This document shows positions 43,873 to 61,644 of a stretch of DNA of 64,000 nt, piece after piece. The notes below the pieces were generated by a model. It ran no database searches, was not told the DNA's origin, and was given only the letters and a program-made list of their open reading frames with translations. The position numbers and the translations under genes are program-made. Source of the DNA: Terriglobia bacterium (GTDB taxonomy: Bacteria; Acidobacteriota; Terriglobia; 20CM-2-55-15); the NCBI GenBank assembly GCA_965216035.1, contig CBDCFM010000021.1:4236-68235 (forward strand), written 5' to 3'. Numbering within the stretch: the stretch's first letter is position 1; every line of letters begins with the position of its first letter.

Positions 43873-43874
43873 GA

Positions 43875-44025: not shown

Positions 44026-44052
44026 AGAGCAAATGCAGGTGACGCTGTCGGT

Positions 44053-45030: not shown

Positions 45031-45034
45031 CAGG

Positions 45035-46504
45035 TCACGGACCTCTGCCAGGAAGATTCTGGGCCTTCGCCGTTTCTCCCGACAACACCCAGGTGTCCTT
45101 ACTGCCGCCGCCCTGAGACGAATTGACGACGAGGGATCCTTTCTTCAGTGCAACTCGGGTCAGTCCTCCAGGCATGACATAAATGTCTTCGCCATAAAGA
45201 ACGTACGGCCTCAAGTCGACGTGGCGCCCTTCGAACCCGCTCCCGGTGATCACCGGCACCCGCGACAGCGACAGAGTGGGTTGAGCAACATAGTTTCGCG
45301 GATTCTCTCGGATCAAGCGGCGAAAAGATTCGCAGTCGGCCTTGCTCGCATGCGGGCCAACGAGCATGCCGTATCCCCCGGCTTCGTTGGCGCTCTTGAC
45401 AACCAGGGTTTCCAGATGTTCCAGGACGTGTTGACGGTCTTTGCTATCCCAGCAGACAAATGTTGGAACGTTGGCCAGGACGGGATCCTCTCCGAGGTAG
45501 TATCGGATGACTTTCGGTATGTATGCATAGACAGCCTTGTCATCCGCGATCCCGCAGCCCGGGGCGTTCGCCAGCGCCACACGCCCCTTTCTATAGGCTG
45601 CAAAGATCCCGGGTACGCCGAGGCAGGTGTCTTTCCGGAATGCCAGCGGGTCAAGGAAGTCGTCATCGATCCTCCGATAGAGCACGTCGACCCGCCTGGG
45701 GCCCCGGGTCGTCCGCATGATCAGGTCGCCATCCAGGATCGCCAGATCACTCCCCTCGACGAGCTCGACACCCATTTCCCTTGCAAGAAAGGAGTGTTCA
45801 AAGTATGCGGAGTTGTAGATTCCGGGAGTCAAAACCGCAACGGTGGGGTTCTCCTGGCCCACGGCCAGCGATTCAAGGGTGGACAGCAAATGGCTCGGGT
45901 AGTCGCTCACCGGTCGGACGTTCGAATTCTGGAAGGCGACGGGAAACGTTTCCTTGAGAACCCTTCGATTTTCCAGAACATAGGAGACTCCGGAAGGACA
46001 GCGGAGGTTGTCTTCGAGCACGTAGTACTGCCCGTCCGTATCGCGCACGAGGTCCGCACCGTTGATATGACTCCAGACGCTCCGCGGCGGATCGAGGCCC
46101 ATGCAAACTTCGCGGAAAGACTGCGAGGACAGGATCAGTTCCCGAGGCACGACCCCGTCCTTCAGGATCTTCTGATCATGGTAGAGGTCATCAATGAAGA
46201 GGTTCAGTGCCAGCATACGCTGGCAAAGGCCACGCTCAAGGGTTTCCCATTCGGGGGCCTCGACGATCCGGGGAATGATGTCGAACGGAAAGATGCGCTC
46301 CGTCCCCGCGTTGTCTTCATACACCGTGAAGGTCACGCCTGCTCCGTAGAAAGCCTGTTCTGCGGCCTTCTGTCGAGCATGGATTTCCGAAATCGGAAGT
46401 CCCCGGATCCGTTCCGCAAGGGGGCGGGCTCCGGCGCGGGGTTGCCCGCGCGATACAAACATTTCGTCGTGGAAACCCGTCGGATCGTATTGACTGAACG
46501 GCAT
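45035..46504 (-). CDS. circularly permuted ATP-grasp type 2 protein
   Basis: 489 aa, colinear with the CP_ATPgrasp_2 family and with the N-terminal half of 40449..42977. Confidence 0.8.
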   Translation of the reverse strand: MPFSQYDPTGFHDEMFVSRGQPRAGARPLAERIRGLPISEIHARQKAAEQAFYGAGVTFTVYEDNAGTERIFPFDIIPRIVEAPEWETLERGLCQRMLALNLFIDDLYHDQKILKDGVVPRELILSSQSFREVCMGLDPPRSVWSHINGADLVRDTDGQYYVLEDNLRCPSGVSYVLENRRVLKETFPVAFQNSNVRPVSDYPSHLLSTLESLAVGQENPTVAVLTPGIYNSAYFEHSFLAREMGVELVEGSDLAILDGDLIMRTTRGPRRVDVLYRRIDDDFLDPLAFRKDTCLGVPGIFAAYRKGRVALANAPGCGIADDKAVYAYIPKVIRYYLGEDPVLANVPTFVCWDSKDRQHVLEHLETLVVKSANEAGGYGMLVGPHASKADCESFRRLIRENPRNYVAQPTLSLSRVPVITGSGFEGRHVDLRPYVLYGEDIYVMPGGLTRVALKKGSLVVNSSQGGGSKDTWVLSGETAKAQNLPGRGP

Positions 46505-47195
46505 GGCAGCTCCAAATTATTCTATTTCTGTAGGTCCTTGCAAATTGTCGTGGGTTTTCTCAGACCCGTCATTGAACCGCGGAAGAGAACGGACGCGTCG
46601 AGCACGGAACATCAAACCCTGGGGAGAGAGGTCGCTTTGACGCACATACACGTTCCGATAGATCACCTGTAGTACACATCGACTGGAACACCCCATTGCA
46701 GACGTTCAAACATTCCTCCCTGGGATGGATCGGTGTCGGGGCCGGACTCGTTTCGTGTTGGAGCTGCCGTCTCGGAAGGCCATGGATAGCCTGTTCCTGG
46801 CGGAATGCCCCACGCGGCTCAATACAGACCTGCCATTGTCGTACATTGTCAAAACCAATGAAGTTTTCTGAACTCACCCCGGAGCACCCGATCAAGGTTG
46901 AGAAGAACGCCGTCAGAAGTACAGTTTCTAGAGTGTGGTGTGGACACGGCTGCATTCCGATTGCACGCCATGATGGACACAGCAATGTCGGTGGCGGGAC
47001 CCCTCATCCTGATGGCCACTCGAAGCTCACTTCTACCATTCGTGAACTCACGGCGTGATGTTTCGTACAATAGAAACCGAACTTTCACAGAATCGGCGCA
47101 TGTGCGGTTCCCGGAAAGCTGTCATTCCCGAAAGCCGGGATGTCGTGTGTGAATCGCTGTAAACTTTTACTTGATGTAACCATGTGAGGCTGAAC

Positions 47196-47342
47196 AATGT
47201 CGCAGTTGAATGGTGATAAATCCCGCCATAACCGTCAGCGGAAAGAAAAACTTCGGAAGAGGGTTCTACTTCGGGATTTACGCGGAGACCCGCGGGCCCA
47301 GGCCAAGGACCCTCCGAAAAAGACCAAAAAGCCCGCCGAGTG
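47196..47342 (+). CDS. unannotated 48-aa highly basic small protein (MSQLNGDKSRHNRQRKEKLRKRVLLRDLRGDPRAQAKDPPKKTKKPAE)
   Basis: ATG with a GAGG Shine-Dalgarno 7 nt upstream. It falls below the 60-aa cut-off of the ORF track and sits in a 930-bp gap otherwise free of credible ORFs. Confidence 0.35.
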
Positions 47343-47431
47343 AGGTTTGGCGAGTGAGGTTTGGACGGAGTCGTCGGTTTTGATCGGAAGCCGGCCAGGA
47401 CGCATCGTGAGTGTCGCGCCCTGGCCCCTGT

Positions 47432-48601
47432 TTATATGGATTCCGCCGAAAGCTGCGGAAAGATCCGTTCGATGTTGTCCCGGTAGAGTTGCTCGAACTC
47501 CTGCGTATCGAACACACCTGCATCGGTAAGTCCTTTAACATCGTTGACCATGTTGCTGTAGGGGAAATCGGTTCCGAACACCATCTGGTCGATGCCCACA
47601 ACCTGCCGGAGCGCACGCATCGCCACCCCATTCGCGGTGGCCGCACAGTCGTAATAGAAGCCCCGGAGCTGGTCGAGCTCCGAACCGGGTTCCGCCGTCT
47701 GCCGCAGATACGAGTCGAGATCGCCGCGGTGTCCGACAATGCGCTGGACAAGGAATGGCATCGTGCCGCCCGCATGCGAGAAAATCCAATTGATGTTGGG
47801 GAACCTCGTTGGCACGTCGTTGACGATGAGGCTCATGATCATCCGGGTCGTGTCGGTCCCGTACTCAATCGTGTTCGGGCGCATGTTCTTGACGATGTTG
47901 ATGCAGCAGGCCGCATCCGTCGGATGCGTGTAGACGGTCAGGCTACGGCGATTGAGTTCCTCCAGGAGTGGGGTGAATTGCGGTTCGCCGATGTATTGAT
48001 CGCCGTTGCTCGTCGCCAGGAACGCACCGCCCGCCCCAAGGGTGTCAATAGCATACTCCAGTTCTAGGAGGCTGTTGTCGACGTCGGGCATTGGCATCGA
48101 CGCCATCAAGACGAAACGGCCGGGGTAGTCCGCAACCATCTGCGTGCCGTATTCGTTTCCCTCGCGTGCCAGCCGACGGATGGTCTCCGCACCCTGGGCC
48201 TCGGAGACGCCCCGCTGTTGGAGCCTGTCCGGGGTAAAAGCCCCGCCGGCCTGTCCCGTCGAAATCAGCGCCGTCGCCGTCCCCGTGCTGTCCATTGCCT
48301 CGATCGATCTGTCGGGCGTCCAACCAATTCTGGCGTTGGGTGCCAGATTGACCGCCTCGAGCTCCTCGAACCAGCCGGCCGACGTGAAGTGATGATGGAC
48401 ATCGACCCGGCGGCCCGCGGCGACATCTATTCCCGCCGTTGACGTCGGCGCCTCCCCGCCTGGAGCCTCCGTCCCCTGTTCGCTGCTGCCACAGCTTGAT
48501 AGCCACACCCCCGCTCCCGCAGCCGCGAGCCCGGTCAGAAACTGCCTCCGCGGTTGGACCGGGTTCACGCCGTTCGGTCCATTCACATCGTCACACTTCA
48601 T
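47432..48601 (-). CDS. amidohydrolase-2 family hydrolase, Tat-exported lipoprotein
   Basis: Tat motif RRQFLTGLAAAGAGV plus lipobox LSSCG, then HHHF... Confidence 0.65.
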   Translation of the reverse strand: MKCDDVNGPNGVNPVQPRRQFLTGLAAAGAGVWLSSCGSSEQGTEAPGGEAPTSTAGIDVAAGRRVDVHHHFTSAGWFEELEAVNLAPNARIGWTPDRSIEAMDSTGTATALISTGQAGGAFTPDRLQQRGVSEAQGAETIRRLAREGNEYGTQMVADYPGRFVLMASMPMPDVDNSLLELEYAIDTLGAGGAFLATSNGDQYIGEPQFTPLLEELNRRSLTVYTHPTDAACCINIVKNMRPNTIEYGTDTTRMIMSLIVNDVPTRFPNINWIFSHAGGTMPFLVQRIVGHRGDLDSYLRQTAEPGSELDQLRGFYYDCAATANGVAMRALRQVVGIDQMVFGTDFPYSNMVNDVKGLTDAGVFDTQEFEQLYRDNIERIFPQLSAESI

Positions 48602-49089
48602 GTTCGACCTCCAAAGATACGAAAAGGGCGCCGTGAGACCATTTACGTCGTTTCAAATAGATGCATCCGGGGGCCGGCCTGTACCGGTTCACATCACCGG
48701 ATGCGGCAAAAGGGCACGCCCTCACCACGACCGAAAAGCCTACGCTGTTGACCGCATTCCGAACAAAGTACCGCCCGAGCGTAGTCAAAATAAGCGCACA
48801 ATTGCAATGAAAATAGGATGATGTGTGACGTTTGCGAGACACGAAATTGGGCCGCGAAGTCGCAATCAAGACACTGCCCGAAAAGTACTCCGCCGACAAA
48901 GTGCCTCAAGTGCAGTTTCGGGCCGCACGCCGCACCTGACCAAAAATTCAGAAATTCTTAAGTTGTATGTACCCTCCTGTGGGACCTAGCGTTTATCTTG
49001 ATGATCAGGCTGAGGTACTAAACTGTGTGGCTGGCATTTGTAGTTGGCAATGGATACATTAGGACCCGCATTATGAGAGGAGACTGTCG

Positions 49090-51543
49090 ATGAGCCATGC
49101 ATATTGCCGGGGCCGACTCCTAGCCCTTCTGTTCATATTCTTGTTGTGTGGACCGCCGGTTACGGAACTGAGGGCCCAGGCTGCCCAGACGGGAAACATT
49201 GAAGGCAGCGTCGTCGACCGAGTCACCGGTGAGGCGCTTTCGGACGCGCTGATCAGCATTGAAGGAACTGATGTCAGCACCACCGCGAACGCCATCGGAC
49301 GCTTTGAATTGCTGGGAATCTCGACTGGAGAGGCCGTCGTCCTGATCGAAGCGCCAGGTTTTCTCCCGCTACGCATCCCCGAACTCCGGGTCGGCGCTGA
49401 GGCCAGCTTGCAGCTCGAAGTCGGCATGGAGCGAACGCCAAACATATTTCAACAGATTCAGGTGACGGCGACCAAAGATGCCGTCAGCATCGGCGATCTT
49501 GCCGTCCCCGCGACCATACTCGACAGTGAGTCGATAGAACGTCGAGGCGACCTCGAACTGACGAACGCTCTGGAAAATGTGCCGGGTATGATTGTCAGCG
49601 GACAGCTCGGACCCTTCGAATCCATTCTCATGCGAGGGATGCCAAGATCCGGCAACGAGAACGAGACCACGCTCCTGCTCATCGACGGTGTCCCACAGAC
49701 CGACTCGAGAAACAGCGCGCGTGTGATCAATCTCCCGATCCACGATGCCAGCAGAGTCGAAATCATCCGTGGCCCCAATTCTGCGCTTTATGGCCGAACT
49801 GCGATCGGCGGATCGGTCAACGTGATTACCGGCAACCCCACGCCGACGCCGAGATTCTCCGTCGATCTGACGGGTGGGAGCTTTGGAACGTTCAAAGCCG
49901 TCGCGACGGCCTCCGGGCCGATTTCCGATTGGGGTGGCTATTACGTGTCGACGGCGGGCAACCGTGACCACGGTTACTACGAAAAAGACTTCAATTTCGG
50001 CGTGGAAGAATCGTCGCATTTCGGCAAGTTCACTTTTATTCCGGATGAACGGTCTCTGGGCAGCGTCAGTTTCAATCGCGTGCTCTCCGACAACAGCACT
50101 GCAACCAACGAACCGATCGTAACCGATCCCGCCACGGGTGAATTCGAGCTGCTGCACAAGGTTGATCCGGATTTTGTCCGCCTGAGCAACCTGAACATTC
50201 CTGTGACGAATTACCATCAGGAAGAAACTCGAGCAACGCTGAACTACACGCGGGAGTTGGCCCCCTGGGTGAGTCTGACCGAAATACTCGGTTACCGAAA
50301 AATCCAGTACAAGTTTATCGACGACGGAGATTTTATCGGGTCACCGTTCGACTTGACGGCCCAGACCCTCTCCATGTATCCGTTCGAGCAGCAAACGGAT
50401 GAAGACATCTGGTATCAAGAGTTGAGGTTCAACGTCGACCATAGCTTCGGAAATATCGAAGGTGATTTAATCGCGGGCTGGTCGTATGAAAACACCAACG
50501 GTTACAAACTGGGTAACCTGATATTTACGGACGAAGATCTCTTCGGTATCCCGCTCAACTACGTCGATCCTGTCATTCCTCCCCGAAAAGACTGGCAGTA
50601 TTTCCAAATCGGCGGACGGGACTACGATCTGGGCAATCACGGAGTCTTTGGTCAGTACACTATTGAGCCCGGCCGATTCATTCTTTCGGGAGGGGGGCGC
50701 TACGATCGGCTCCGACTCGACAACGTGCGCACGCTCGATGCTGGACAGCCGAGTTTCAGCGAGACTTTCGAAGCCTTCAGCCCCAAGGCCAGCGCGACGT
50801 TCAAGCTACTGGGAGCCGACGGGATCGGACCGTCAGTCAACGTCTATGGCGCATACTCAGAAGCGTTTCGACCGCCTCGAGTTCCGAGTTCTCTATCGCT
50901 CAGCACGGATGAGGAACAGCTGGACCCCGAAAACGTCCGCAACTACGAAGCGGGTGTCAAGGCCAGCCTCCTGGATGATCGTCTCTCCCTGGAAGGCGGG
51001 TTCTTTTGGATGGACCGGGAGGGCATCGTGATCTCGATTCGAAGGGGCGCATTCTTTGAAGACGCGAATGCCGGAGCGCACGAATATAAAGGGCTCGAGT
51101 TCGGGGCTAGTTTTGCGGCGACCGACGAAGTGTCCGTCTTCGGAAACGCTGCGTTCTACCGAAATAAATTCGCGGATTTCGTTGTCGAAACCGAAAACAG
51201 CGTGACCGATTTGACTGGCAATCGGCTCAACCTCTCTCCCGAATACATCGTTAACTGGGGTGTCCTCTACTCGCCGCTGCTTCAGGTGGATCTCACTCTG
51301 GACGTCAAGCATGTCGGCGACACATTTGTGGATATCGGAAATCAGTTCCTGCTGGATCCATATACGATCGTCGATGCGGCCGTCGCTTGGAGTGTCGGGC
51401 CAGCGCGGTTCACACTCTCGGCGACCAACCTGTTCGATAAGGAGTACTACTGGGGTGGCGGGAGTTCGTCGGTCGAGGTCGCCGATCCGGGACGCCCAAG
51501 GCAGATTCTGTTGCGGACGTCTTTTGAGTTCGGGCCCGAATAA
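49090..51543 (+). CDS. TonB-dependent outer-membrane receptor (carboxypeptidase-regulatory-like N-domain plus plug plus barrel)
   Basis: Signal peptide, then the plug and 22-strand barrel pattern ending with a C-terminal F, 817 aa. Confidence 0.85.
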   Translation: MSHAYCRGRLLALLFIFLLCGPPVTELRAQAAQTGNIEGSVVDRVTGEALSDALISIEGTDVSTTANAIGRFELLGISTGEAVVLIEAPGFLPLRIPELRVGAEASLQLEVGMERTPNIFQQIQVTATKDAVSIGDLAVPATILDSESIERRGDLELTNALENVPGMIVSGQLGPFESILMRGMPRSGNENETTLLLIDGVPQTDSRNSARVINLPIHDASRVEIIRGPNSALYGRTAIGGSVNVITGNPTPTPRFSVDLTGGSFGTFKAVATASGPISDWGGYYVSTAGNRDHGYYEKDFNFGVEESSHFGKFTFIPDERSLGSVSFNRVLSDNSTATNEPIVTDPATGEFELLHKVDPDFVRLSNLNIPVTNYHQEETRATLNYTRELAPWVSLTEILGYRKIQYKFIDDGDFIGSPFDLTAQTLSMYPFEQQTDEDIWYQELRFNVDHSFGNIEGDLIAGWSYENTNGYKLGNLIFTDEDLFGIPLNYVDPVIPPRKDWQYFQIGGRDYDLGNHGVFGQYTIEPGRFILSGGGRYDRLRLDNVRTLDAGQPSFSETFEAFSPKASATFKLLGADGIGPSVNVYGAYSEAFRPPRVPSSLSLSTDEEQLDPENVRNYEAGVKASLLDDRLSLEGGFFWMDREGIVISIRRGAFFEDANAGAHEYKGLEFGASFAATDEVSVFGNAAFYRNKFADFVVETENSVTDLTGNRLNLSPEYIVNWGVLYSPLLQVDLTLDVKHVGDTFVDIGNQFLLDPYTIVDAAVAWSVGPARFTLSATNLFDKEYYWGGGSSSVEVADPGRPRQILLRTSFEFGPE

Positions 51544-51758
51544 CCTAGATGAAAGCGACAGATTATTGTCTTGTAGGTGCGGGCATCCATTAGCATGGGG
51601 CCCACCGTCCTTCGGCCGGTCCCCCCATATGCTCTATCTCTGTGGCCCCTGAGCGCGCCAAACCAGGCGCGACATTTACGACATGCGTCGGAAGACCCCA
51701 CCTGCAGCTGAACGGAAGCCCCTACCCGATAAATCCACCGCTGGCGCAAAGGCGAATC

Positions 51759-53076
51759 TGAACGGCCGGGAACATCATTGACAGAATAGTCCAGGCACAT
51801 CCTTTACAGTTTGTACCTCTTTCTCATTCTATTCCCCAAAGCATCTTGAATGGTAAAGGTCCGTTCGTCCATTTGTCCGAGACGAACGGTGCCGAAGTAG
51901 ACATCCCAGACGCCGTCGTCGACTTCCTCGAGTCCGACGTACTCACCTTCAAGGGTGTGGGTGATTGGAACACGATGGGCCGACCACCGGAATCCCCCGT
52001 TCCGACTGACCAGTCGCGTTTCGAAATGAGACGGATACTCGATGGGAGGCAGGCCCAACGGAAACTCCCGTGAAGAGGTTTGATAGCGGGAGTCGGGCGT
52101 TTCCTGGTCCAGCGCCTCATGGGGACGCACAGTGTTGAATTCCTCAACAAAACGATTGAACCGGAATTGCTGAGCCCGCATCGTGGCCGCTGGCGGCCGA
52201 GTGGTCTCTTGTTTCAAGGTTTTGTGCATGCGTTCGTGTCGGCCGTTTTGATCTGGCCGGCCGGGCTGAATCAATTCGGGGAAGATTCCGAGGCGGATCC
52301 ACCAGACCGATAGCCGGCTCAGTCGCCCGATGGCCGTGGTGGCGAACGGCGGCCCGTTATCGGTCCGGATGATTGCAGGGAGACCGAAGTTCCGGAAGAC
52401 ACTCTTGAATACGGACTTCGCGCGAACATGATTAGTCGAGTAGAGGCCCTTACATGCGAGCAGATACCGGGTGCAACCGTCGGTGATCGTCAACGGATAG
52501 CAATAGATGCCATCCCCAGTTTTAAACTCGCCTTTATAGTCCGCACACCAGACATCATTGGACCGATCCATTGAAGTCACGGGCTTGCCCGGATGACCCG
52601 GATAGGTGCGTCTCCGCTTCTTCTCCACAAGCCCATGACGTTTCAGCAGTTCCGAGATCGTCGATCGGGCGGGCCAGTCGACCTCGGGATGCCGGGTATT
52701 CAAGATCTTAAGAAGCTTCTTGGCCCCCCAGTGAGGATGTTTGCGGCGCAGATCGATCACCCGCCGCACCACATCGTCTGACGTCCGATGCGGGCAGCCG
52801 ACAGGACGACGGGAACGCTCCTCCAATCCGGATTGGCCATTCTCCAAGAATCTGTCAATCCACTTATATCCGGTGGGCCGGCTCACCCCGTAGCGCGCAC
52901 ACAGTTCGACGATCGAGAAAGATCGAGTAAGATAATCGGCAATAAATAATCGTTTTTGATCCATGGTCGTTGATTGATCCCAGGGCATATGAAGTCCTCC
53001 ACGGAGGACTTCATCGTGATCGATCTGTAAACCATGTACCCGGACAGATATGTAAACGATGTACCCGGACCGTACC
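51759..53076 (-). mobile_element. IS481-family insertion sequence, copy 2 (identical to copy 1), target duplication ATC
   Basis: Same 1318 bp as 1064..2381. The triplet atc occurs at 51756-51758 and 53077-53079. Confidence 0.85.
51804..52988 (-). CDS. IS481-family DDE transposase
   Basis: Identical to 1109..2293. Confidence 0.85.
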   Translation of the reverse strand: MPWDQSTTMDQKRLFIADYLTRSFSIVELCARYGVSRPTGYKWIDRFLENGQSGLEERSRRPVGCPHRTSDDVVRRVIDLRRKHPHWGAKKLLKILNTRHPEVDWPARSTISELLKRHGLVEKKRRRTYPGHPGKPVTSMDRSNDVWCADYKGEFKTGDGIYCYPLTITDGCTRYLLACKGLYSTNHVRAKSVFKSVFRNFGLPAIIRTDNGPPFATTAIGRLSRLSVWWIRLGIFPELIQPGRPDQNGRHERMHKTLKQETTRPPAATMRAQQFRFNRFVEEFNTVRPHEALDQETPDSRYQTSSREFPLGLPPIEYPSHFETRLVSRNGGFRWSAHRVPITHTLEGEYVGLEEVDDGVWDVYFGTVRLGQMDERTFTIQDALGNRMRKRYKL

Positions 53077-53194
53077 ATCTTTTAACTAACATCTAGGTGG
53101 ATCGCCCGGTGCGGATCGGTTCGGCACGCACAAGGTCGTGGGCGGACATCGAATCAAAGAGTACGTATCAAACCAGAAACAGGGGAGACGCATC

Positions 53195-53884
53195 GTGAGC
53201 TATAAACAGATCGTTCTTGCTGCAGTGGCCGCCATCGGTTTGAGTTCGGCCGCTGATTTGGCCCAGGGCCAGGAATCTCAGTTTCCGCTGGGTTTCTTTG
53301 TCACCAGCACCACACACAGTGGCAATCTCGGTGGCCTCGCTGGTGCCGACGCCGAGTGCCAACGCCTGGCGGCCGCCGTCGGTGCGGGCAATCGCACCTG
53401 GCGCGCTTATCTCAGCACCCAGGGCACCCAGAGCGCACCTGCCGTCAACGCACGTGATCGCATTGGCAATGGGCCTTGGTACAATGCCAGCGGGACTATG
53501 GTAGCGGGCAGCCTTGCAGGTCTGCATGGCGACGTTCAACGTGCCAGCAACCTGATCAATGTCAGAACTGCGTTAACGGAAGCGGGCGAGCTCGTGAACG
53601 GGTTCGGCCGTGCCGAAGGCACGCCGCAAGAACACGACATGCTGACGGGATCGGATTCGCATGGCCGGGCGTTTCCGCCGGGCATGTCCAACCAGGCCGA
53701 CGACCGCACGTGCAACAACTGGACGTCCGATAGCCGCGACGCCCATGCCATGATCGGCCACCATGACCGGATGAGCGGCTGGAACACATCCTGGAATTCA
53801 TCGCACTCAACCGCGGGCTGCAGCCTGGAGGCGTTTAACGACACTGGCGGCGCTGGACGCTTTTATTGCTTCGCTGCGGACTGA
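53195..53884 (+). CDS. secreted endostatin-like (collagen XV/XVIII NC1 / C-type-lectin-fold, DUF1554-type) protein
   Basis: GTG start with an AGGGGAG Shine-Dalgarno; signal peptide IVLAAVAAIGLSSAADLA. GNLGGLAGADAECQRLAAAVGAGNRTWRAYLST parallels human endostatin [32 protein letters not shown], and the Cys pattern is conserved. Confidence 0.5.
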   Translation: MSYKQIVLAAVAAIGLSSAADLAQGQESQFPLGFFVTSTTHSGNLGGLAGADAECQRLAAAVGAGNRTWRAYLSTQGTQSAPAVNARDRIGNGPWYNASGTMVAGSLAGLHGDVQRASNLINVRTALTEAGELVNGFGRAEGTPQEHDMLTGSDSHGRAFPPGMSNQADDRTCNNWTSDSRDAHAMIGHHDRMSGWNTSWNSSHSTAGCSLEAFNDTGGAGRFYCFAAD

Positions 53885-54318
53885 TACAGAGCGACCCGGG
53901 TATCGCTCGCCAGTAGTATCGCTGCTAGACCGATCACGTGTGGGCCGAACCGCACCACTTCCGTGGGCGCGGTTCGGCACACATGGGCCAATCCCCACCG
54001 AGCGCCCGGGCGGGACTGCCCGAATTCGTATCGTCGCAGTTCCCGCTCCGGTGCATCACGGGTCCGCGCTATCTGCTGGCCGGGGATGTCGATCACGTCG
54101 CCGTCTGGATCCACCCCACGACTCAGATATAGCCGCTCATCGTCGAAGGTGACGCAGACCCGCGATAGAGGAGTCGGATTTCATGCCGCAAGTCTGGGAG
54201 TATCTCACCCGGTGGAGGGTTCCTATCTCGATCCGACTGGCCTTCCAGGGACCTTGTGTCATACACTTCGTGTTATATATCAACGTTTCACAGGCCAACT
54301 GGATAAAAGCGAGGGAGC

Positions 54319-55029
54319 ATGAATGAACAGAAGTTGAATTCACCACTCGAACGGCGATCGTTTCTCTCACGCCTGGGTGCAGGCGCAGCAGCCGTCGGTG
54401 CGGTTTTTGCCTCAGGTGTCCAGCCGGTGCAGGCGCAGTCGCTCGGAGGGCGAAGCTGGCAACCGACGCGTCACGCTGAAGACGACTGGTTCGACGAGCT
54501 GCCCGGCAAGCACCGGTTTATGTTCGACAACATTAACGCTGGAGGCTTCGGGCAGGCGATGCGTTTCGCCAACAATTTCATCAACGTCAACATGGATGCC
54601 TACGGAGTCGAATCGAGCGACCTTGCCGTGGTCATCGTGGCGCGCAGTCGGTCCACGGCGTTCGCATTCAACGACGCGATCTGGGAAAAATACGGTGTCC
54701 CAATGGCAGCACGAACCGGCCTCAACGACCCGAAAACGGATCAACCACCCACGGTGAACTTGTTCAATGCCCCCGACTATGGCGGGGAACTCCCCAACGG
54801 AGGACTGATGCTCGAGACGCTGTTCGAGAGAGGCCTACGTTTAGCCGTGTGCCGAGTGGCGACGCGGGGCTATGCGCGTCGGGTGGCCGCGGCAGTCGAT
54901 GGGGACGTAGACAGCATCTTTGAGGAGATGTCAGAAAATCTGATCGAGAACTCCACCATGGTCCCGGCCGGTATTGTTGCCGTCAATCGGGCACAGGAGC
55001 GTGGCTACGCGTTCTCATACGTGGCATAA
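54319..55029 (+). CDS. Tat-signal protein of unknown function
   Basis: Twin-arginine motif RRSFLSRLGAGAAAVGA. No confident family assignment. Confidence 0.5.
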   Translation: MNEQKLNSPLERRSFLSRLGAGAAAVGAVFASGVQPVQAQSLGGRSWQPTRHAEDDWFDELPGKHRFMFDNINAGGFGQAMRFANNFINVNMDAYGVESSDLAVVIVARSRSTAFAFNDAIWEKYGVPMAARTGLNDPKTDQPPTVNLFNAPDYGGELPNGGLMLETLFERGLRLAVCRVATRGYARRVAAAVDGDVDSIFEEMSENLIENSTMVPAGIVAVNRAQERGYAFSYVA

Positions 55030-55299
55030 ACGGCCCCTTGCCCATCGTGCGCCGCCGGCGTCGAAGCCGACGGCCGAGCGGCCCCCGGGGGTTCGGATCT
55101 GTGTAATGCGCGCGAAACGACCCGGCAGCCTCGGCTGGGACCCTGTCTACTAAAGCGGTTGGGTCGCGTTATCGCCGCCCTCTACCCGCTCTGTGTCTGT
55201 GATCCGGGTATCGGCTCCGGCAAACTCCATCCCCAGAACCGCCGGATTTTGGTAGTGGCGTCTTTTTGACCCCCTCTGTGTGAAGATCCCTTTTCCCTG

Positions 55300-56694
55300 A
55301 TGAAGACGGACACCCAATATGACGTGCTGGTCGTGGGGGGCGGAAACGCCGGGCTCTGCGCCGCGATCGCCGCGAGCAGTTCCGGCGCCCGGGTCCTGGT
55401 CCTCGAGGTCGCACCCCGCTCCTTGCGTGGCGGCAACAGCCGGCACACGCGAAACCTTCGCTGCATGCATGAGGGGCCAGAGGACGTCCTGACAGGCGCC
55501 TATTCCTTTGCTGAGTACTGGGACGACCTGATCGAGGTGACGGGGGGAGAAACCAACGAAACGCTGGCCCGCATCACGCTTGAGGAGTCCGCAACCTGCC
55601 GCGAATGGATGATGCGGCATGGCGTTCGGTTTCAGCCTGCGCTCGGCGGCACGCTCCACCTCTCCAGAACGAACGCCTTTTTCCTAGGGGGTGGCAAAGC
55701 CCTGCTGAACGCCTACTACCGAGCGGCCGAGACCATGGGTGTCGACATCGAGTATGACGCCGAGGTCCAGGCCCTGGATATCCGGGATGGGCGGTTTGAC
55801 TCGGCCACAGTCCGCCGCAACGGCGCGTGTCAGGAGGTCTCGGCCGCATCCCTCGTCGCCGCGGCCGGGGGTTTTCAGGGGAACCTCGACTGGCTCCGCG
55901 AGGTCTGGGGCGAGGCGGCGGACAACTTCATAATCCGGGGGACGCCTTACGACACCGGGACAATTCTGCGTGCCCTCCAGGGGTGTAGTGCCAAGACCGT
56001 TGGGGACCCGGCCCAGTGCCATGCGATCGCTGTCGATGCGCGGTCCCCACGCTTCGACGGCGGCATTGTGACACGGGTGGACTCGGTGTCTCTCGGGATC
56101 GTTGTGAATCAGGACGGTGTTCGTTTCTACGACGAAGGTGAAGACTTCTGGCCCAAAAGGTATGCCATCTGGGGCCTTCTGATTGCCGGGCAGCCGGGGC
56201 AGATCGCCTATTCGATCGTCGATTCCAAGTCCATGGGCCTGTTTCTGCCGTCACTCTATCCCCCGATCAAAGGTGCGTCGGTCGCCGAACTCGCACGCGC
56301 GCTTTCAGTGGATGCAGCCACACTCGAGAACACGGTCATGGAATTCAACGCCTCCGTTCAGGATGGTGCGTTCGATCACACGGTGCTCGACAACTGCCGG
56401 ACGGAAGGGCTGACGCCTTCCAAAAAACACTGGGCCCGGACCCTGGATCGGCCTCCGTTCTTCGCCTATCCCCTGCGGCCCGGCATCACCTTCACCTATC
56501 TGGGTGTCGCCGTGAACGAGCGTGCCCAGGTTCTGATGGAAAACAGGGAACCGTCGGACAACGTGTTCGCGGCCGGCGAGATCATGGCTGGCAACATTCT
56601 CGGCAAGGGCTACCTGGCGGGGATAGGGATGACAATCGGCACGGTATTCGGCCGGATCGCGGGGAGGGAGGCTGCAGCCAATGTCCGTCACTGA
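55300..56694 (+). CDS. tcuA: tricarballylate dehydrogenase flavoprotein
   Basis: Colinear with TcuA: YDVLVVGGGNAGLCAAI, HTRNLRCMHEG, LSRTNAFFLGGGKAL, AAGEIMAGNILGKGYLAGIGMTIG. Confidence 0.8.
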   Translation: MKTDTQYDVLVVGGGNAGLCAAIAASSSGARVLVLEVAPRSLRGGNSRHTRNLRCMHEGPEDVLTGAYSFAEYWDDLIEVTGGETNETLARITLEESATCREWMMRHGVRFQPALGGTLHLSRTNAFFLGGGKALLNAYYRAAETMGVDIEYDAEVQALDIRDGRFDSATVRRNGACQEVSAASLVAAAGGFQGNLDWLREVWGEAADNFIIRGTPYDTGTILRALQGCSAKTVGDPAQCHAIAVDARSPRFDGGIVTRVDSVSLGIVVNQDGVRFYDEGEDFWPKRYAIWGLLIAGQPGQIAYSIVDSKSMGLFLPSLYPPIKGASVAELARALSVDAATLENTVMEFNASVQDGAFDHTVLDNCRTEGLTPSKKHWARTLDRPPFFAYPLRPGITFTYLGVAVNERAQVLMENREPSDNVFAAGEIMAGNILGKGYLAGIGMTIGTVFGRIAGREAAANVRH

Positions 56695-57802
56695 GCTAAA
56701 ACTCCTGACGCTGATTGAGGATGGTGAGCGCGCGATGAGCATCTGTAACGCCTGTCGTTACTGTGAGGGCTTTTGCGCGGTCTTCCCGGCCATGGAAAAG
56801 AGATTGACGTTCCCGCCCGAGCAACTCGGCTATCTTGCGAATCTCTGCCACGACTGCCGCGAGTGTTACTACTCCTGTCAATACGCGCCACCTCACGAAT
56901 TCAGTCTGAATCTCCCCAAAACGCTCGCAGGCCTGAGACGGGAGAGTTATCGCCGTTATGCGTGGCCCGGGTTTCTCGTGCGCATACTTGGAAACGCCGG
57001 TCCCGCTCTGATGGTGAGCTTCCTACTGAGTCCGGTCCTGTTTCTGCTGGCAACGCTCGCGTTTCAGGATCCGGACATCGTGTTCGCGGCCCACTCTGTT
57101 GAGGCAGGCTCCTTCTACCGGGTTATTCCCCATACCGCCATGGTTCTGTGCTTCGGCGTCGTCGGTGTATTCGTGGTCCTGGCGCTCGGGATGGGGTTTC
57201 GCAATTTCTGGCGGGAGTCGAATTCAGGGGGCTTCACCTGGGGCGACCTCACCGCAATCGGGGACGCGCTTCGGGATAGTGCGCGCTTGCGCTACCTGGG
57301 CGGGGGCGGAGCGGGTGGGGACGGCTGCGCATACCCTGAAGAACGGACGTCCAATAGCCGGCGCGTCTACCACCACCTGACGTTCTACGGATTTATGCTC
57401 TGCTTTGCCTCGACGACGATCGCCGCCCTCTATCACAACATTCTCGGCTGGGAAGCGCCCTATGATTTCCGTAGCCTGCCCGTTGTCCTCGGTTCCCTCG
57501 GAGGCGTCGGGCTCCTGGTCGGCCCCGCAGGCCTGCTTGGACTCAAGTCGATCCGAGACCCCGAGCCCTCGGATCCGCTGCAGAGCAGGATGGATGTCGC
57601 CTTTCTCATCCATCTGTTTCTGACGAGCCTCACAGGCCTATTGATTCTGTGGCTGCGAGAGACCCCGGCGATGGGTGTCACGCTGGCTGTTCACCTGGGC
57701 GTGGTGATGGGACTCTTTTTGACCATGCCCTACGGCAAGTTCGTCCACGGGATTTACCGATTCGGTGCCCTCATCCGTTTTGCGAAGGAGAAACAGCAGT
57801 GA
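56681..57802 (+). CDS. tcuB: tricarballylate utilisation membrane Fe-S protein
   Basis: CNACRYCEGFCAVFPAM and LCHDCRECYYSCQYAPPHEF cysteine clusters plus TM segments; overlaps tcuA. Confidence 0.75.
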   Translation: MSVTELKLLTLIEDGERAMSICNACRYCEGFCAVFPAMEKRLTFPPEQLGYLANLCHDCRECYYSCQYAPPHEFSLNLPKTLAGLRRESYRRYAWPGFLVRILGNAGPALMVSFLLSPVLFLLATLAFQDPDIVFAAHSVEAGSFYRVIPHTAMVLCFGVVGVFVVLALGMGFRNFWRESNSGGFTWGDLTAIGDALRDSARLRYLGGGGAGGDGCAYPEERTSNSRRVYHHLTFYGFMLCFASTTIAALYHNILGWEAPYDFRSLPVVLGSLGGVGLLVGPAGLLGLKSIRDPEPSDPLQSRMDVAFLIHLFLTSLTGLLILWLRETPAMGVTLAVHLGVVMGLFLTMPYGKFVHGIYRFGALIRFAKEKQQ

Positions 57803-58788
57803 TCACTATCCGAACATGCACAATCAGGCATGCCATAGCCCCTCTGGCCGCGGCCGCCCTCTTTCTCGGCGCCCCAGGTTGCGGTCTCCCACCACCGGCA
57901 TCGGACACCCTGACGCTGCTTGCGCCGGCCGCGCCTGGCGGCGGCTGGGATCAGACCGCCCGCGCGATGCAGCAGGTTCTAGCGAGCACGGGTGTTGCAC
58001 CCGCGGTACAGGTGATCAATGTCCCAGGTGCCGGTGGGATCATCGGTCTGGCGCAGGTGGCGAACGCATATGAGGGTGATCCCAATCTTCTGATGATGAC
58101 GGGGCTGATCATGATGGGGGCCATCCTAACCAATGACTCACCGGTCACCCTCGATGAGGTCACGCCGATCGCGCGGCTTCTCGGAGAGTGCGAGGTTCTC
58201 GTTGTGCCGAGTGATTCGCCGTATCAAACGCTCGAGGACTTCGTGGCCGGGTGGAGAGAGGATCCCGGGGCGTTCGCCATTGCAGGTGGCTCTGCCGGGG
58301 GGACCGACCACATGCTGACCGGTCTGCTCGCCCGGGCCGTTGGCATCGATCCCACGGCGATCAACTATCTGCCGCACTCGGGGGGCGGAGAGTCGTTGGC
58401 ATCAATTCTGGGCGGCCACGTGGCCGCCGGCATCAACGGTTATGCGGAACTCAATCCGTTTATCGACGCGGGCCGGTTGACGCCACTGGGAATCTCCAGC
58501 GACGAACCGATCGCGGGAGTCGACATTCCCACGTTCCGGGAGCAGGGTTTCGACGTCGCGCTTGCGAACTGGCGTGGGGTCGCCGCGCCTCCCGGCATCA
58601 CCGATGCAGAGCAATCCCGTCTCATCGCGTTGCTGGATCAGATGCATGCCTCCAGGGAATGGCGTGTGGCGCTGGAGGCCAACAACTGGTTCGATCTCTA
58701 TCTGACCGGTGAGGAATATGGGGCTTTTCTGAACGAGGAAGACGGGCGCACGATGGCCGTTCTCGAGTCCATCGGCCTGCTCAACTGA
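57799..58788 (+). CDS. tctC: tripartite tricarboxylate transporter substrate-binding protein (TctC/Bug family)
   Basis: GTG start overlapping the tcuB stop (GTGA), with a GAAGGAG Shine-Dalgarno 8 nt upstream, and the Bug-family core. Confidence 0.75.
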   Translation: MITIRTCTIRHAIAPLAAAALFLGAPGCGLPPPASDTLTLLAPAAPGGGWDQTARAMQQVLASTGVAPAVQVINVPGAGGIIGLAQVANAYEGDPNLLMMTGLIMMGAILTNDSPVTLDEVTPIARLLGECEVLVVPSDSPYQTLEDFVAGWREDPGAFAIAGGSAGGTDHMLTGLLARAVGIDPTAINYLPHSGGGESLASILGGHVAAGINGYAELNPFIDAGRLTPLGISSDEPIAGVDIPTFREQGFDVALANWRGVAAPPGITDAEQSRLIALLDQMHASREWRVALEANNWFDLYLTGEEYGAFLNEEDGRTMAVLESIGLLN

Positions 58789-58804
58789 AGGGGACATTGC
58801 TGTC

Positions 58805-59287
58805 GTGCATTCGGACCCAACCGAATCCGGACGCGATAAGGTTGAAGTCGCAGTAGCGGCTGGCGTGATCGCGCTGGGACTCGTCGTTGTCGGAGGCGCG
58901 TTCACAATCGGTTTCGGGGTGCGCTACGACCGGATCGGCCCGCGTTTCTTTCCCTATCTCGTCGCCGCCGGCTTGCTGGTGTCCGGAGTTTTTCTTCTCC
59001 GGGAAGTCCTCCGCTCGAAGACCACCCCCGGCATTCGCAGCAGCAGTCGCGTATCGAACCTGGGAATCCTGACGATTGCCCTGGCTTCGGGAGTGCTGGG
59101 TCTGGAATCGGCCGGGTTCATCCTTACGTCTGTCGTCGTGTTCTGGCTGGTCGCTCGCGCCTTCGGGAGCCGGCGGCCATGGCGGGATGTCCTCGTGGGA
59201 ACGCTGCTGTCGGTCATCGTCTACTTCGCCTTCACGCGAGGCCTGGGCCTGCCCTTGCCCGGGGGTATTCTTCAGGGGCTAAACTGA
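58805..59287 (+). CDS. tctB: tripartite tricarboxylate transporter small permease
   Basis: Four-TM small protein between tctC and tctA. Confidence 0.65.
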   Translation: MHSDPTESGRDKVEVAVAAGVIALGLVVVGGAFTIGFGVRYDRIGPRFFPYLVAAGLLVSGVFLLREVLRSKTTPGIRSSSRVSNLGILTIALASGVLGLESAGFILTSVVVFWLVARAFGSRRPWRDVLVGTLLSVIVYFAFTRGLGLPLPGGILQGLN

Positions 59288-60778
59288 ATGGATTCCCTGC
59301 AGCTGCTCGCCGAAGGCTTTACCGTCGCCCTCCAGCCCGCAAACATCCTATGGGCGTTCCTCGGAGTTCTGCTGGGCACCGTCGTCGGCATCCTGCCGGG
59401 CATCGGTCCGGCCCTTACCGTGGCGCTGCTCCTGCCGGTCACCTACGGCCTCCCTCCGGTGGCGGCCTTCATTATGTTCGCAGGCATCTACTACGGTGCG
59501 ATGTACGGCGGGTCGACGACGTCCATCCTGATGAATACACCCGGCGAGAGTGGAAGCATCATCACTGCGCTGGAAGGCAACCGGATGGCCCGTGCCGGCC
59601 GCGCTTCGGCCGCGCTGGCAACCGCGGCAATCGGCTCCTTCGTGGCTGGAACGATCGGCACGCTGGCGCTGACCTTCGCTGCACCGGCTCTGGCGGACCT
59701 TGCACTCGCATTCGGTCCTGCGGAGTACTTCGCGCTGATCGTCGTAGGCTTCACCACGATCGCATCGGTGCTGGGAGATACGCCGTCGCGCGGGTTTGCC
59801 AGCCTGTTCTTCGGTCTTGCGCTCGGTCTTGTCGGCATCGATCTGCAAACCGGCCAGGCGCGCTACACAATGGGCTTCCCCCAGCTGCTTGACGGCATCC
59901 ACGTTGTCGTGGTGGCTGTCGGTCTTTTCGCAGTCGGCGAGACTCTTTTTCTCGCCTCCCGCCCCCACGGTCGGGACGCGGTGATTCCGGTCCGTGGCTG
60001 GACGTGGCTGTCGCGGAAAGAACTGGCGCGGTCCTGGAAACCGTGGCTGAGAGGAACGCTGCTCGGCTTTCCCATCGGCGGATTGCCCACCGGGGGCGCG
60101 GAGATCCCGACGTTTCTGTCCTATTCACTGGAACGGCGACTCTCCCCTCACCCCGAAGAGTTCGGTCACGGCGCCATCGAAGGCGTTGCAGGCCCCGAAG
60201 CCGCCAACAACGCCGCAGCCGCCGGAGTCCTCGTCCCCTTGCTTACGCTCGGGCTGCCCACTTCCTCAACCGCGGCGATCATGCTGGCGGCATTCCAGCA
60301 GTTCAACCTTCAGCCCGGCCCCCTGATATTTACAGCCAATCCGGAACTGGTGTGGGGACTGATCGCGAGCCTGTACCTGGGCAACACGATGCTGTTGCTG
60401 CTGAACCTCCCGCTGGCGCCGTTGTGGGCGCGGCTGCTCCGGATCCCCGCGCCCCTGTTGTACGGGGGCATCCTCGTCTTCGCGACGCTCGGCACCTACA
60501 GCCTGAAAAACTCCGTGTTCGATGTCGGACTGATGTACCTGATCGGAATGATCGGCTTCCTGATGCGCCGGGTCGACATCCCCGTGGCCCCAGCCATCAT
60601 TGGCATGATTCTCGGACCGATGGTAGAACAGCAGTTCCGGCGGGCGTTGGCCATCTCCGAAGGCGACCTGTCCGTCTTCCTCACGCGCCCCATCTCCGCA
60701 ACACTTCTTCTCCTGGCACTGGTCGCACTGCTCGCCGTTCCGCTGGCTCGCGCATACCGGGGCCGGAAGCGGGCATAG
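59288..60778 (+). CDS. tctA: tripartite tricarboxylate transporter large permease
   Basis: TctA-family sequence, 496 aa. Confidence 0.85.
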
Positions 60779-60851
60779 AAACGGGCACGTTCCCGGAGCA
60801 GGATTGGTGGATGCCCGCGGTCGCGTCGGCGAAGGCACGACGATCCAGCGC

Positions 60852-61573: not shown

Positions 61574-61644
61574 TGAGAAGTGGACCCCAAATTTCGGACA
61601 GCGTTGTAAGGTGGGCTCTGCACAGATGAGAGGACGTTACAACG

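What the first reader, a model, noticed from the sequence alone, without database searches (positions are those of the whole stretch)
53195..53884. Secreted bacterial protein with an endostatin / collagen XVIII NC1-like fold next to IS481 copy 2
After a signal peptide the protein reads GNLGGLAGADAECQRLAAAVGAGNRTWRAYLST and later TCNNWTSDS...MIGHHD...GCSLEAF...RFYCFA. This parallels human endostatin ([32 protein letters not shown] ... SYCETW ... SCHHAYIVLCIE), including the cysteine spacing. Bacterial members of this fold (DUF1554-type, from memory) are uncharacterised. A eukaryote-like extracellular domain in an IS-flanked accessory region suggests a surface or host-interaction role or lectin-like binding.
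Basis: partly seen in the sequence, partly recalled or inferred. Interest (0 to 1): 0.5.

Follow-up and report, generated by a model that had tools for sequence, protein, structure and literature searches.

The report
Secreted bacterial endostatin-fold protein, conserved family
This is a real, strongly conserved gene for a small exported bacterial protein with the same fold as animal endostatin; it belongs to a very large uncharacterised family of environmental bacteria, carries a conserved histidine/aspartate site that endostatin lacks, and is an ordinary chromosomal gene into whose upstream region an insertion sequence has recently landed.

Summary

The rest of the interpretation needs correcting. 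The gene is not accessory. A 98-99 % identical genome has the same gene order without the IS, which sits inside a conserved upstream element 118 bp before the start codon. Bacterial relatives are not all uncharacterised, because the Leptospira Len proteins have been studied. A host role is unlikely: the carriers are soil and aquatic Acidobacteriota, Gemmatimonadota and Proteobacteria. Endostatin's zinc site and basic surface are absent (pI 5.7 against 9.1).

The family is very large (7,489 clusters at 50 % identity) and under strong purifying selection (dN/dS about 0.1). It keeps four cysteines and a set H111/H147/D148/H189/D191/H204 whose members are lost together. The domain also occurs fused to GH5 hydrolases, an esterase, a subtilase and DUF6152. 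My best reading, which is an inference, is a metal-dependent ligand-binding (lectin-like) module.

The parts
53195..53884 (+). Coding sequence of the endostatin-fold protein: 229 aa, GTG start, TGA stop
   Evidence: The start is supported by the ortholog alignment and by the Shine-Dalgarno sequence. dN/dS is 0.09-0.17 against orthologs.
53182..53187 (+). Shine-Dalgarno sequence GGGGAG, 7 nt before the GTG
   Evidence: Read from the sequence. GGGAG is conserved in all 10 ortholog leaders.
53195..53269 (+). Sec-type signal peptide, residues 1-25, with predicted cleavage LAQG|QE and no lipobox cysteine
   Evidence: Inferred from the sequence features (a Lys in the n-region, the hydrophobic stretch IVLAAVAAIGLSSAA, small residues at -3 and -1). 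The 'LAQ' end is conserved in the family. No signal-peptide predictor was available.
53285..53881 (+). Endostatin-fold domain, residues about 31-229. The mature protein is about 204 aa, 21.4 kDa, pI 5.7 and has no lysine.
53357..53359 (+). Cys55 (C1), aligned with endostatin Cys33. With Cys225 (53867-53869) it is the presumed outer disulfide.
   Evidence: Aligned. 100 % conserved in 111 diverse domain copies. The endostatin disulfide pattern Cys33-Cys173 and Cys135-Cys165 comes from PMC5426730. The bonding here is inferred by homology.
53711..53713 (+). Cys173 (C2), aligned with endostatin Cys135 (TCNNW against YCETW). With Cys209 (53819-53821) it is the presumed inner disulfide.
   Evidence: The bonding is inferred.
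53525..53527 (+). His111, conserved in 93 % of copies; endostatin has Phe here
53633..53638 (+). His147-Asp148, each 90 % conserved; endostatin has Lys-Ser. They precede the shared motif TGSDxxGR.
   Evidence: They are lost together with His189 (p = 6e-10).
53759..53767 (+). His189-His190-Asp191 of the MIGHHD motif. H189 is 90 % conserved and D191 84 % (otherwise Asn).
53792..53806 (+). Trp200-Asn201-Ser-Ser-His204 (the SWNSSH motif). W is 99 % conserved, N 86 %, H 93 %.
51759..53076 (-). IS481-family insertion sequence, copy 2 (1,318 bp). It is 100 % identical to 1064-2381, is flanked by an ATC duplication (51756-51758 and 53077-53079), and its transposase is transcribed away from the target gene.
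   Evidence: It is absent at this site in L001.
51735..51744 (.). Left half of the conserved upstream element (palindrome CCACCGCTGG; consensus CCACCGGTGG), now separated from the gene by the IS
   Evidence: It lies a fixed 22 nt before the second half in 7 Terriglobia orthologs.
53079..53095 (+). Right half of the conserved upstream element (CTTTTAACTAACATCTA), immediately next to the IS end

Best explanation
The gene encodes a small Sec-exported, disulfide-stabilised, single-domain protein with the endostatin variant of the C-type-lectin-like fold. It is a core chromosomal gene of a Terriglobia-like (Acidobacteriota) bacterium. It belongs to a very large, highly constrained family found in soil, freshwater and marine bacteria. 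All of that is shown. My inference on function is that it works in the periplasm or outside the cell as a ligand-binding (lectin-like) module. The binding site would be a metal centre formed by the family-specific residues H147/D148, H189/D191 and H204, probably with H111 and N201. This site is different from endostatin's N-terminal zinc site and from its basic heparin-binding surface, and the bacterial protein has neither. The likeliest ligand class is a polysaccharide or another extracellular polymer, because the same domain is attached as a terminal module to secreted GH5 glycoside hydrolases, an esterase, a subtilase and giant surface lipoproteins. The IS481-family element is unrelated to the gene's function. 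It inserted recently into a conserved upstream palindrome-plus-motif element and may have changed the gene's regulation.
Against: There is no direct evidence of metal or ligand binding. I could not read the model coordinates, so I could not check whether the His/Asp residues cluster in space. AlphaFold2 confidence is low exactly where two of the motifs lie (mean pLDDT 55 for residues 111-120 and 50 for 191-200). The correlated-loss test is not corrected for phylogeny, and the sequences concerned include related giant proteins. The fusions are in relatives at or below about 50 % identity, and some of them (S8, giant proteins) have lost the His residues. A site rich in histidine is unusual for carbohydrate-binding modules and would fit an enzyme or a metal-handling protein equally well. 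No neighbour is conserved across the family.
Confidence: 0.45

Rival explanations
1. It is a metalloenzyme. The conserved His/Asp centre would be catalytic (hydrolytic or redox), acting on an extracellular polymer or small molecule. In the fusion proteins the domain would be an auxiliary catalytic module and not a binding module.
For: There are four conserved His plus Asp and Glu, and they are lost together. The conservation is extreme for a mere binding module: 66-97 % identity across phyla and dN/dS about 0.1. Recurrent neighbours include redox-type beta-propellers: GSDH-like in 6 loci, and CarboxypepD_reg + CxxCH + Vgb_lyase/SGL in 8 loci. The DUF6152 partners start their mature chain with His-His. 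GH5 fusions are also typical of auxiliary-activity enzymes.
Against: No enzyme is among the structural neighbours. The domain occurs at the N-terminus, at the C-terminus and in tandem, which is how binding modules behave. Family members without the His residues persist. The neighbour associations are each at or below 10 % of loci and have no background control.
Confidence: 0.17
2. It is a periplasmic metal-binding, metal-buffering or metallochaperone protein, and the His/Asp site is the whole function.
For: It is small, acidic, exported and rich in His (8 His in 204 residues). It sits directly downstream of a TonB-dependent receptor in this genome and in L001. It is linked to DUF6152 proteins with an N-terminal His-His.
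Against: The link to the TonB-dependent receptor is not conserved in other lineages. Fusion to GH5, esterase and protease domains and to giant surface proteins is hard to explain for a metal chaperone. No metal-regulator box was recognised upstream, although I only inspected it by eye.
Confidence: 0.12
3. It is a host or extracellular-matrix adhesin like the Leptospira Len proteins or endostatin itself.
For: It has the same fold superfamily as the Len proteins, which bind laminin, fibronectin and factor H. There are weak NCBIfam hits to LenA/B and LenF.
Against: The Len models score 21 bits against cut-offs of 300 and 400. There is no lipobox or membrane anchor. The carriers are free-living environmental lineages. 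The surface is acidic and endostatin's Zn and heparin sites are absent.
Confidence: 0.04
4. It is mobile accessory cargo brought in by the IS481 copies, either as a composite transposon or as part of an island.
For: Two identical IS copies lie in the same orientation about 49 kb apart. Transposase genes lie within 6 kb of family members in 9 of 81 loci.
Against: The locus is syntenic on both sides in L001, which has no IS there. There is a clean 3-bp target duplication at this copy and a different one (GAG) at copy 1. G+C is normal. dS against the cross-phylum copy is saturated, so there has been no recent transfer.
Confidence: 0.02

Closest known systems
Endostatin domain (NC1 C-terminal domain) of animal collagens XVIII and XV (Pfam PF06482; PDB 1koe, 1bnl, 1dy0, 1dy2)
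   Different: It is a stand-alone exported protein and not the C-terminus of a collagen. The Pfam Endostatin model scores below its cut-off (17.9 against 29.4). It lacks the zinc ligands His1/His3/His11/Asp76 and the arginine-rich heparin-binding surface (pI 5.7 against 9.1). It has about 25 extra residues in loops. It has its own conserved His/Asp set, which endostatin lacks.
Leptospira interrogans LenA-F, endostatin-like outer-membrane proteins (NCBIfam NF047482 and NF047483; Stevenson et al. 2007, PMC2063517)
   Same: They are bacterial exported proteins of the same endostatin-like / DUF1554 superfamily. The N-terminal GAD..C helix motif is recognisable.
   Different: The Len models score 21 bits against cut-offs of 300 and 400, aligning only residues 8-95. 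The Len proteins are outer-membrane proteins of a pathogen (NCBIfam labels LenF a lipoprotein) and are reported absent from non-pathogenic Leptospira. This protein has no lipobox and comes from free-living bacteria.
Pfam DUF1554 (PF07588)
   Same: It passes the gathering threshold, and most close homologs carry the precomputed PF07588 hit.
   Different: Only model positions 2-40 of 136 align. The rest of this subfamily, including the HD / GHHD / SWNSSH motifs, is not captured by the model. The function of DUF1554 is unknown in any case.
Canonical Ca2+-dependent C-type lectin domains (for example mannose-binding protein, selectins, tetranectin)

Membership tests
Pfam DUF1554 (PF07588) | HMM score at or above the gathering threshold of 27.5 bits | tested here: met
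   28.2 bits, E 1.9e-6, but only residues 39-77 align to model positions 2-40 of 136. This is marginal, partial membership.
Endostatin / collagen XV-XVIII NC1 (PF06482) | HMM score at or above the gathering threshold of 29.4 bits | tested here: not met
   17.9 bits, E 0.0026, residues 39-89 only.
Endostatin / collagen XV-XVIII NC1 (PF06482) | Endostatin three-dimensional fold | tested here: met
Endostatin / collagen XV-XVIII NC1 (PF06482) | Two nested disulfides (Cys33-Cys173, Cys135-Cys165) | tested here: inconclusive
   There are four near-invariant Cys in the same order. C55 aligns with C33 and C173 with C135. The disulfide pattern comes from PMC5426730.
Endostatin / collagen XV-XVIII NC1 (PF06482) | C-terminal domain of a multiplexin collagen, preceded by a trimerisation domain and a hinge | tested here: not met
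   The protein is a signal peptide plus a single domain, 229 aa in all.
Endostatin / collagen XV-XVIII NC1 (PF06482) | N-terminal Zn site (His1, His3, His11, Asp76) and basic heparin-binding Arg clusters | tested here: not met
   The alignment places G100 at D76, and the domain starts too late to have H1 and H3. pI is 5.69 against 9.10. The ligand list comes from PMC5426730.
Leptospira Len family (NCBIfam NF047482 LenA/B, NF047483 LenF) | Equivalog HMM score at or above the cut-off (300 or 400 bits) | tested here: not met
   21.0 and 20.6 bits.
Leptospira Len family (NCBIfam NF047482 LenA/B, NF047483 LenF) | Outer-membrane or lipoprotein anchoring; binding of laminin, fibronectin and factor H | not testable with these tools
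   There is no Cys in or just after the signal peptide, so no lipobox (read from the sequence). Binding cannot be tested in silico.
Canonical C-type lectin domain (Ca2+-dependent carbohydrate recognition) | Close CTLD structural match, a Pfam Lectin_C hit, and EPN/QPD + WND Ca2+/sugar motifs | tested here: not met
IS481 family (for the neighbouring element) | DDE (rve) transposase with the IS481 leucine-zipper/HTH N-terminus, terminal inverted repeats and a short target duplication | tested here: met
   rve 49 bits, rve_3 55, HTH_32 61 and LZ_Tnp_IS481 28.8 (cut-off 22.2). The ends are imperfect inverted repeats, TGAACGGCCGGGAACATC and GATGTACCCGGACCGTACC. The flanking duplications are 3 bp: ATC here and GAG at copy 1.

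The most novel reading that the evidence does not exclude
The conserved H147/D148/H189/D191/H204 centre would make this a previously unrecognised class of metal-dependent extracellular module built on the endostatin scaffold. It could be a transition-metal-dependent lectin or carbohydrate-binding module. It could also be an auxiliary catalytic (redox or hydrolytic) domain that works with glycoside hydrolases, DUF6152 proteins with an N-terminal His-His, and periplasmic haem-c or PQQ-type beta-propellers. In that case animal endostatin would be a derived, site-less relative of an ancient and abundant bacterial family.
Probability: 0.12. Interest if true: 0.75.

Novelty: new member of a known kind. 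Interest (0 to 1): 0.36.

Why it matters
The endostatin fold is usually thought of as an animal basement-membrane domain with a few pathogen look-alikes in Leptospira. Here it appears as the scaffold of one of the larger uncharacterised exported protein families of environmental bacteria: about 7,500 clusters at 50 % identity, often several paralogs per genome, and dN/dS about 0.1. The family has its own conserved His/Asp site and is used as a module on secreted hydrolases. That gives a concrete hypothesis that is cheap to test (metal content, polysaccharide binding, one crystal structure) for a protein that soil Acidobacteriota, Gemmatimonadota and marine Proteobacteria all keep nearly unchanged. 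For this window specifically, the result is mostly clarifying. The gene is core and not accessory, and the IS is an incidental recent insertion that may have disturbed its regulation.

Tried and rejected
(1) The AFDB50 fold library, wanted for annotated structural neighbours, was not available.
(2) The model coordinates are not exposed, so I could not measure the spatial clustering of the conserved residues or the disulfide geometry. I used a correlated-loss test as a proxy.
(3) Conserved operon partner: ORFs from 81 loci were clustered, and nothing was found in more than 10 % of loci. The three biggest apparent clusters were shadow ORFs overlapping the gene itself.
(4) The sulfatase + anSME operon upstream of the gene in Vibrio sp. 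and the DUF3500 gene in Phaeobacter sp. are one-off contexts: DUF3500 recurs in one other locus and the sulfatase in none.
(5) Structured 5' leader or riboswitch: no Rfam hit. RNAalifold gives a covariation term of +0.26, and the first hairpin is absent in two orthologs. This is inconclusive.
(6) The sigma-70 promoter and intrinsic terminator scan found no promoter. The two terminator-like hits lie inside the coding sequence and match the number expected by chance.
(7) Recent horizontal transfer as the explanation for 80-88 % identity to an alphaproteobacterial copy: rejected, because dS is saturated.
(8) hhalign of the close-homolog alignment against human endostatin gave only 61.6 % probability, because the alignment has Neff 1.7. 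A profile from diverse representatives did better.
(9) Literature searches for DUF6152, for bacterial endostatin domains and for horizontal transfer found nothing relevant. The Hohenester 1998 structure paper is not held.
(10) There is no second copy of the gene in the window (tblastn).

Full report
**1. The observation**

Window 53195-53884 (+) holds an intact ORF of 229 codons. It starts at a GTG that lies 7 nt after GGGGAG (53182-53187). The mechanical ORF list extends it to a GTG at 53138. However, 44 homologs of 226-263 aa align from the position of 53195, and the GGGAG box is conserved in all ortholog leaders.

The N-terminus (MSYKQIVLAAVAAIGLSSAADLAQG|QE) has the features of a Sec signal peptide with no lipobox cysteine. 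I judged this by eye because no predictor was available. The mature protein would be about 204 aa and 21.4 kDa, with pI 5.69, no lysine and four cysteines.

**2. Is it an endostatin fold?**

Yes.

- **Sequence level.** Pfam DUF1554 scores 28.2 bits (cut-off 27.5), but only residues 39-77 align. Pfam Endostatin scores 17.9 bits, below its 29.4 cut-off. phmmer against all PDB sequences returns only endostatins, at E 1.3e-3 to 5e-2. hhalign of the family alignment against human endostatin aligns 118 columns, including GADxxC, WRAYLS/FRAFLS, GSDSHGR/GSDPNGR and TCNNW/YCETW. Its probability is only 61.6 % because the alignment is shallow, with Neff 1.7. A profile built from 111 diverse domain copies scores mouse endostatin at 37 bits over about 130 residues.

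The match is therefore specifically to the endostatin type and not just to a "C-type lectin fold".

The four cysteines (55/173/209/225) are in the same order as endostatin's 33/135/165/173, and the first two align directly. By homology with endostatin's Cys33-Cys173 and Cys135-Cys165 bonds (PMC5426730), I infer C55-C225 and C173-C209. I could not check the geometry.

**3. Is it accessory and IS-borne?**

No.

- The closest homolog (P0001, 97 % identity) sits on a 5.9-Mb metagenomic contig. Its DNA is 98.4-99.0 % identical to window 41926-61575.
- That contig has the same gene order: ATP-grasp/Alpha-E genes, an amidohydrolase, a CarboxypepD_reg-Plug TonB-dependent receptor, this gene, a 236-aa gene, an FAD protein, CitB and TctCBA. 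It has no IS.
- In the window, a 1,318-bp element (51759-53076) is 100 % identical to 1064-2381. It encodes an rve/HTH_32/LZ_Tnp_IS481 transposase on the minus strand. It is flanked by a 3-bp ATC duplication, and copy 1 has GAG. It ends 118 bp before the GTG.
- G+C is unremarkable.
- dN/dS against orthologs is 0.09-0.17. Against the 80-88 % identical Micropepsaceae (Alphaproteobacteria) copy, dS is saturated. The cross-phylum similarity therefore reflects constraint and not recent transfer.

One consequence of the insertion is worth noting. Seven Terriglobia orthologs share an upstream element, CCACCGGTGG-CGCAAATGCGAnC-TTTAAACTAACATCTA, with fixed internal spacing. In the window the IS sits exactly between the palindrome half (51735-51744) and the second half (53079-95). 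The IS has therefore split what looks like the gene's operator/promoter region. Whether expression is affected cannot be told from sequence.

**4. The family**

The word-indexed search returned 7,993 hits at E <= 0.001. The best 120 are 66-97 % identical and almost all 226-230 aa. A few NCBI records call them "lectin" and the rest are "hypothetical". An exhaustive profile search of 1.84 billion cluster representatives found 7,489 at E <= 1e-3, 2,457 at 1e-10 and 519 at 1e-30.

In species-representative genomes the close family occurs in several groups:

- Terriglobia, Vicinamibacteria and other Acidobacteriota
- Gemmatimonadota, including Longimicrobiales
- Alphaproteobacteria (Micropepsaceae, Rhodospirillaceae, Beijerinckiaceae, Phaeobacter sp.)
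- Gammaproteobacteria (Vibrio sp., Oceanospirillaceae)
- one Dehalococcoidia MAG

Several genomes have two or three paralogs. One Micropepsaceae chromosome has three dispersed copies, and another Micropepsaceae contig has three in tandem. The window's organism is Terriglobia-like.

**5. Context in other genomes**

There is no universal partner. Clustering all ORFs from 81 loci gave these recurrent neighbours:

| Neighbour | Loci (of 81) |
|---|---|
| rve transposases | 9 |
| CarboxypepD_reg + CxxCH + Vgb_lyase/SGL beta-propeller proteins | 8 |
| DUF6152-type exported proteins | 7 |
| GSDH-like (PQQ sugar dehydrogenase-type) beta-propellers | 6 |

Each is at or below about 10 % of loci, and none is controlled against background. 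The Vibrio copy follows a sulfatase and its radical-SAM maturase. That context does not recur.

**6. Clues to mechanism**

(a) *A conserved site that endostatin lacks.* Across 111 diverse domain copies the four Cys are 99-100 % conserved. Conservation of the other key residues is H111 93 %, E129 91 %, H147 90 %, D148 90 %, H189 90 %, D191 84 % (otherwise Asn), W200 99 %, N201 86 % and H204 93 %. Endostatin has Phe, Lys and Ser at the positions of H111, H147 and D148. It has no counterpart of GHHD or SWNSSH.

(b) *The residues are lost together.* Nine of the 11 copies lacking H147 also lack H189 (Fisher p = 6e-10). The figure is the same for D148 and H189. For D148 and H204, p = 7.5e-8. The change is often a paired H/H to R/R replacement. 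This is what one functional site would look like, although the test is not corrected for phylogeny.

(c) *Endostatin's own binding features are absent.* The alignment places G100 at the Zn ligand D76, and the domain starts too late to have H1 and H3. The protein and its family are acidic, with pI 5.0-6.5 against 9.1 for endostatin.

(d) *The domain behaves as a module.* It sits at the N-terminus, just after the signal peptide and followed by a Pro/Ala linker, in two GH5 proteins and a subtilase. It sits at the C-terminus of a dienelactone-hydrolase-type esterase. It sits at the C-terminus of DUF6152 fusions. It occurs in tandem pairs. It occurs three times in lysine-free 6.5-6.9-kaa lipoproteins. 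The GH5, DUF6152 and giant architectures recur on 9, 10 and 3 independent contigs respectively. The N-terminal part of the DUF6152 fusions is homologous to the neighbour genes found in 7 loci. Fusion and neighbourhood therefore agree for that partner.

(e) *A caveat on the model.* The loops carrying H111 and H189-D191 have low model confidence (pLDDT 55 and 50). That is compatible with cofactor-dependent ordering, but it also means the model cannot be leaned on there.

**7. Best explanation and rivals**

*Shown:* it is an exported, cysteine-stabilised, single-domain endostatin-fold protein. It is a core gene under strong constraint and a member of a very large environmental family.

*Inferred, about 0.45:* it is a soluble periplasmic or extracellular ligand-binding (lectin-like) module. 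Its site would be a metal centre made of H147/D148/H189/D191/H204, possibly with H111 and N201. The ligand would most likely be a polysaccharide or other extracellular polymer.

*Rivals:*

| Reading | Confidence |
|---|---|
| Metalloenzyme or auxiliary activity | 0.17 |
| Periplasmic metal-handling protein | 0.12 |
| Len/endostatin-type host-matrix adhesin | 0.04 |
| IS-borne accessory cargo | 0.02 |

The remainder is unassigned.

**8. Comparison with what is known**

By fold and motifs it is closest to the collagen XV/XVIII endostatin domain. It fails that family's sequence threshold, its architectural context, its Zn site and its basic surface. It passes Pfam DUF1554 marginally and only partially.

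**9. Verdict**

For novelty, this is a new member of a known kind, the bacterial DUF1554 / endostatin-like proteins. The subfamily-specific His/Asp site is the one feature that could raise it to a new variant if it is confirmed. Interest is 0.36: a solid "dark-matter" family with a testable hypothesis, but no surprise in kind.

Noticed in passing
window 51735-51744 and 53079-53095; L001 9949-9987; L009, L010, L012, L015, L020, L021 about 75-165 nt upstream of the gene: A conserved upstream element, CCACCGGTGG (perfect palindrome)-CGCAAATGCGAnC-TTTAAACTAACATCTA, is shared by Terriglobia orthologs. In the window the IS481-type element inserted exactly between its two halves, so it probably disrupts an operator/promoter.
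   Followed up: partly
window 53096-53194 and the ortholog leaders (alignment A3): The GC-rich 5' leader has a small hairpin (CTGG-CCCGCA-CGGGTCG) conserved in all 10 orthologs. There is no covariation and no Rfam match, and a first hairpin is missing in two orthologs.
   Followed up: yes
window 1064-2381 and 51759-53076: Two 100 % identical 1,318-bp IS481-family copies lie in the same orientation about 49 kb apart. Their 3-bp target duplications differ (GAG and ATC), which indicates recent and independent transposition.
   Followed up: partly
window 51545-51734 against L001 9620-9947: The intergenic DNA between the TonB-dependent receptor stop and the conserved palindrome is unrelated in the two otherwise 98-99 % identical genomes: about 190 bp in the window and about 330 bp in L001. 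This is a small replacement or indel of unknown origin.
   Followed up: no
window 54319-55029 (+): A 236-aa protein has a twin-arginine signal (RRSFLSRLGAGAAAVGA) and no Pfam match. It is conserved next to the target gene in L001 but is not found near the gene in the other 80 loci.
   Followed up: partly
window 55300-60778 (+): The cluster looks like tricarballylate/tricarboxylate utilisation genes: a TcuA-like FAD_binding_2 protein (464 aa), a CitB/TcuB-like protein (373 aa), then TctC, TctB and TctA. The names rest on the Pfam hits in L001 and on my recollection of the tcu system.
   Followed up: no
L008 11881-12252, L044 206-1249 and 1593-2621, L047 5427-5831; proteins P0214, P0262: DUF6152-family proteins, as neighbours of the domain and fused to it, all begin their mature chain with His-His-[Ser/Ala] directly after the signal-peptide cleavage site, and they share an 'xPH' motif about 35 residues later. 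This could be an N-terminal metal site. There is no literature on DUF6152.
   Followed up: partly
L026 4038-5849, L083 6707-8389, L074 2671-4383, L065 2040-3959, L050 9755-11401, L072 4013-5260: Exported proteins with CarboxypepD_reg + a single CxxCH haem-c motif + a Vgb_lyase/SGL beta-propeller recur near the endostatin-like gene in different phyla. In two cases they are directly adjacent on the same strand.
   Followed up: partly
proteins P0122 (6,876 aa) and P0123 (6,506 aa): These giant lipoprotein-like proteins have essentially no lysine and are rich in Thr, Asp and Pro. Each carries three endostatin-like domains, one near the N-terminus and two near the C-terminus. The origin looks myxobacterial, but I did not identify it.
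   Followed up: partly
L054 3073-6672 (Vibrio sp. 99-70-13A1): A sulfatase, a radical-SAM/SPASM sulfatase-maturase-like gene and the endostatin-like gene lie in a row on one strand. This one-off context hints at sulfated-glycan metabolism in that lineage.
   Followed up: partly
L010 12429-12545: An Rfam ALIL pseudoknot (RF01497, 102 bits), an IS3-family frameshift element, lies about 6 kb from the ortholog in that Terriglobia MAG. It is another sign of IS activity near these loci.
   Followed up: no
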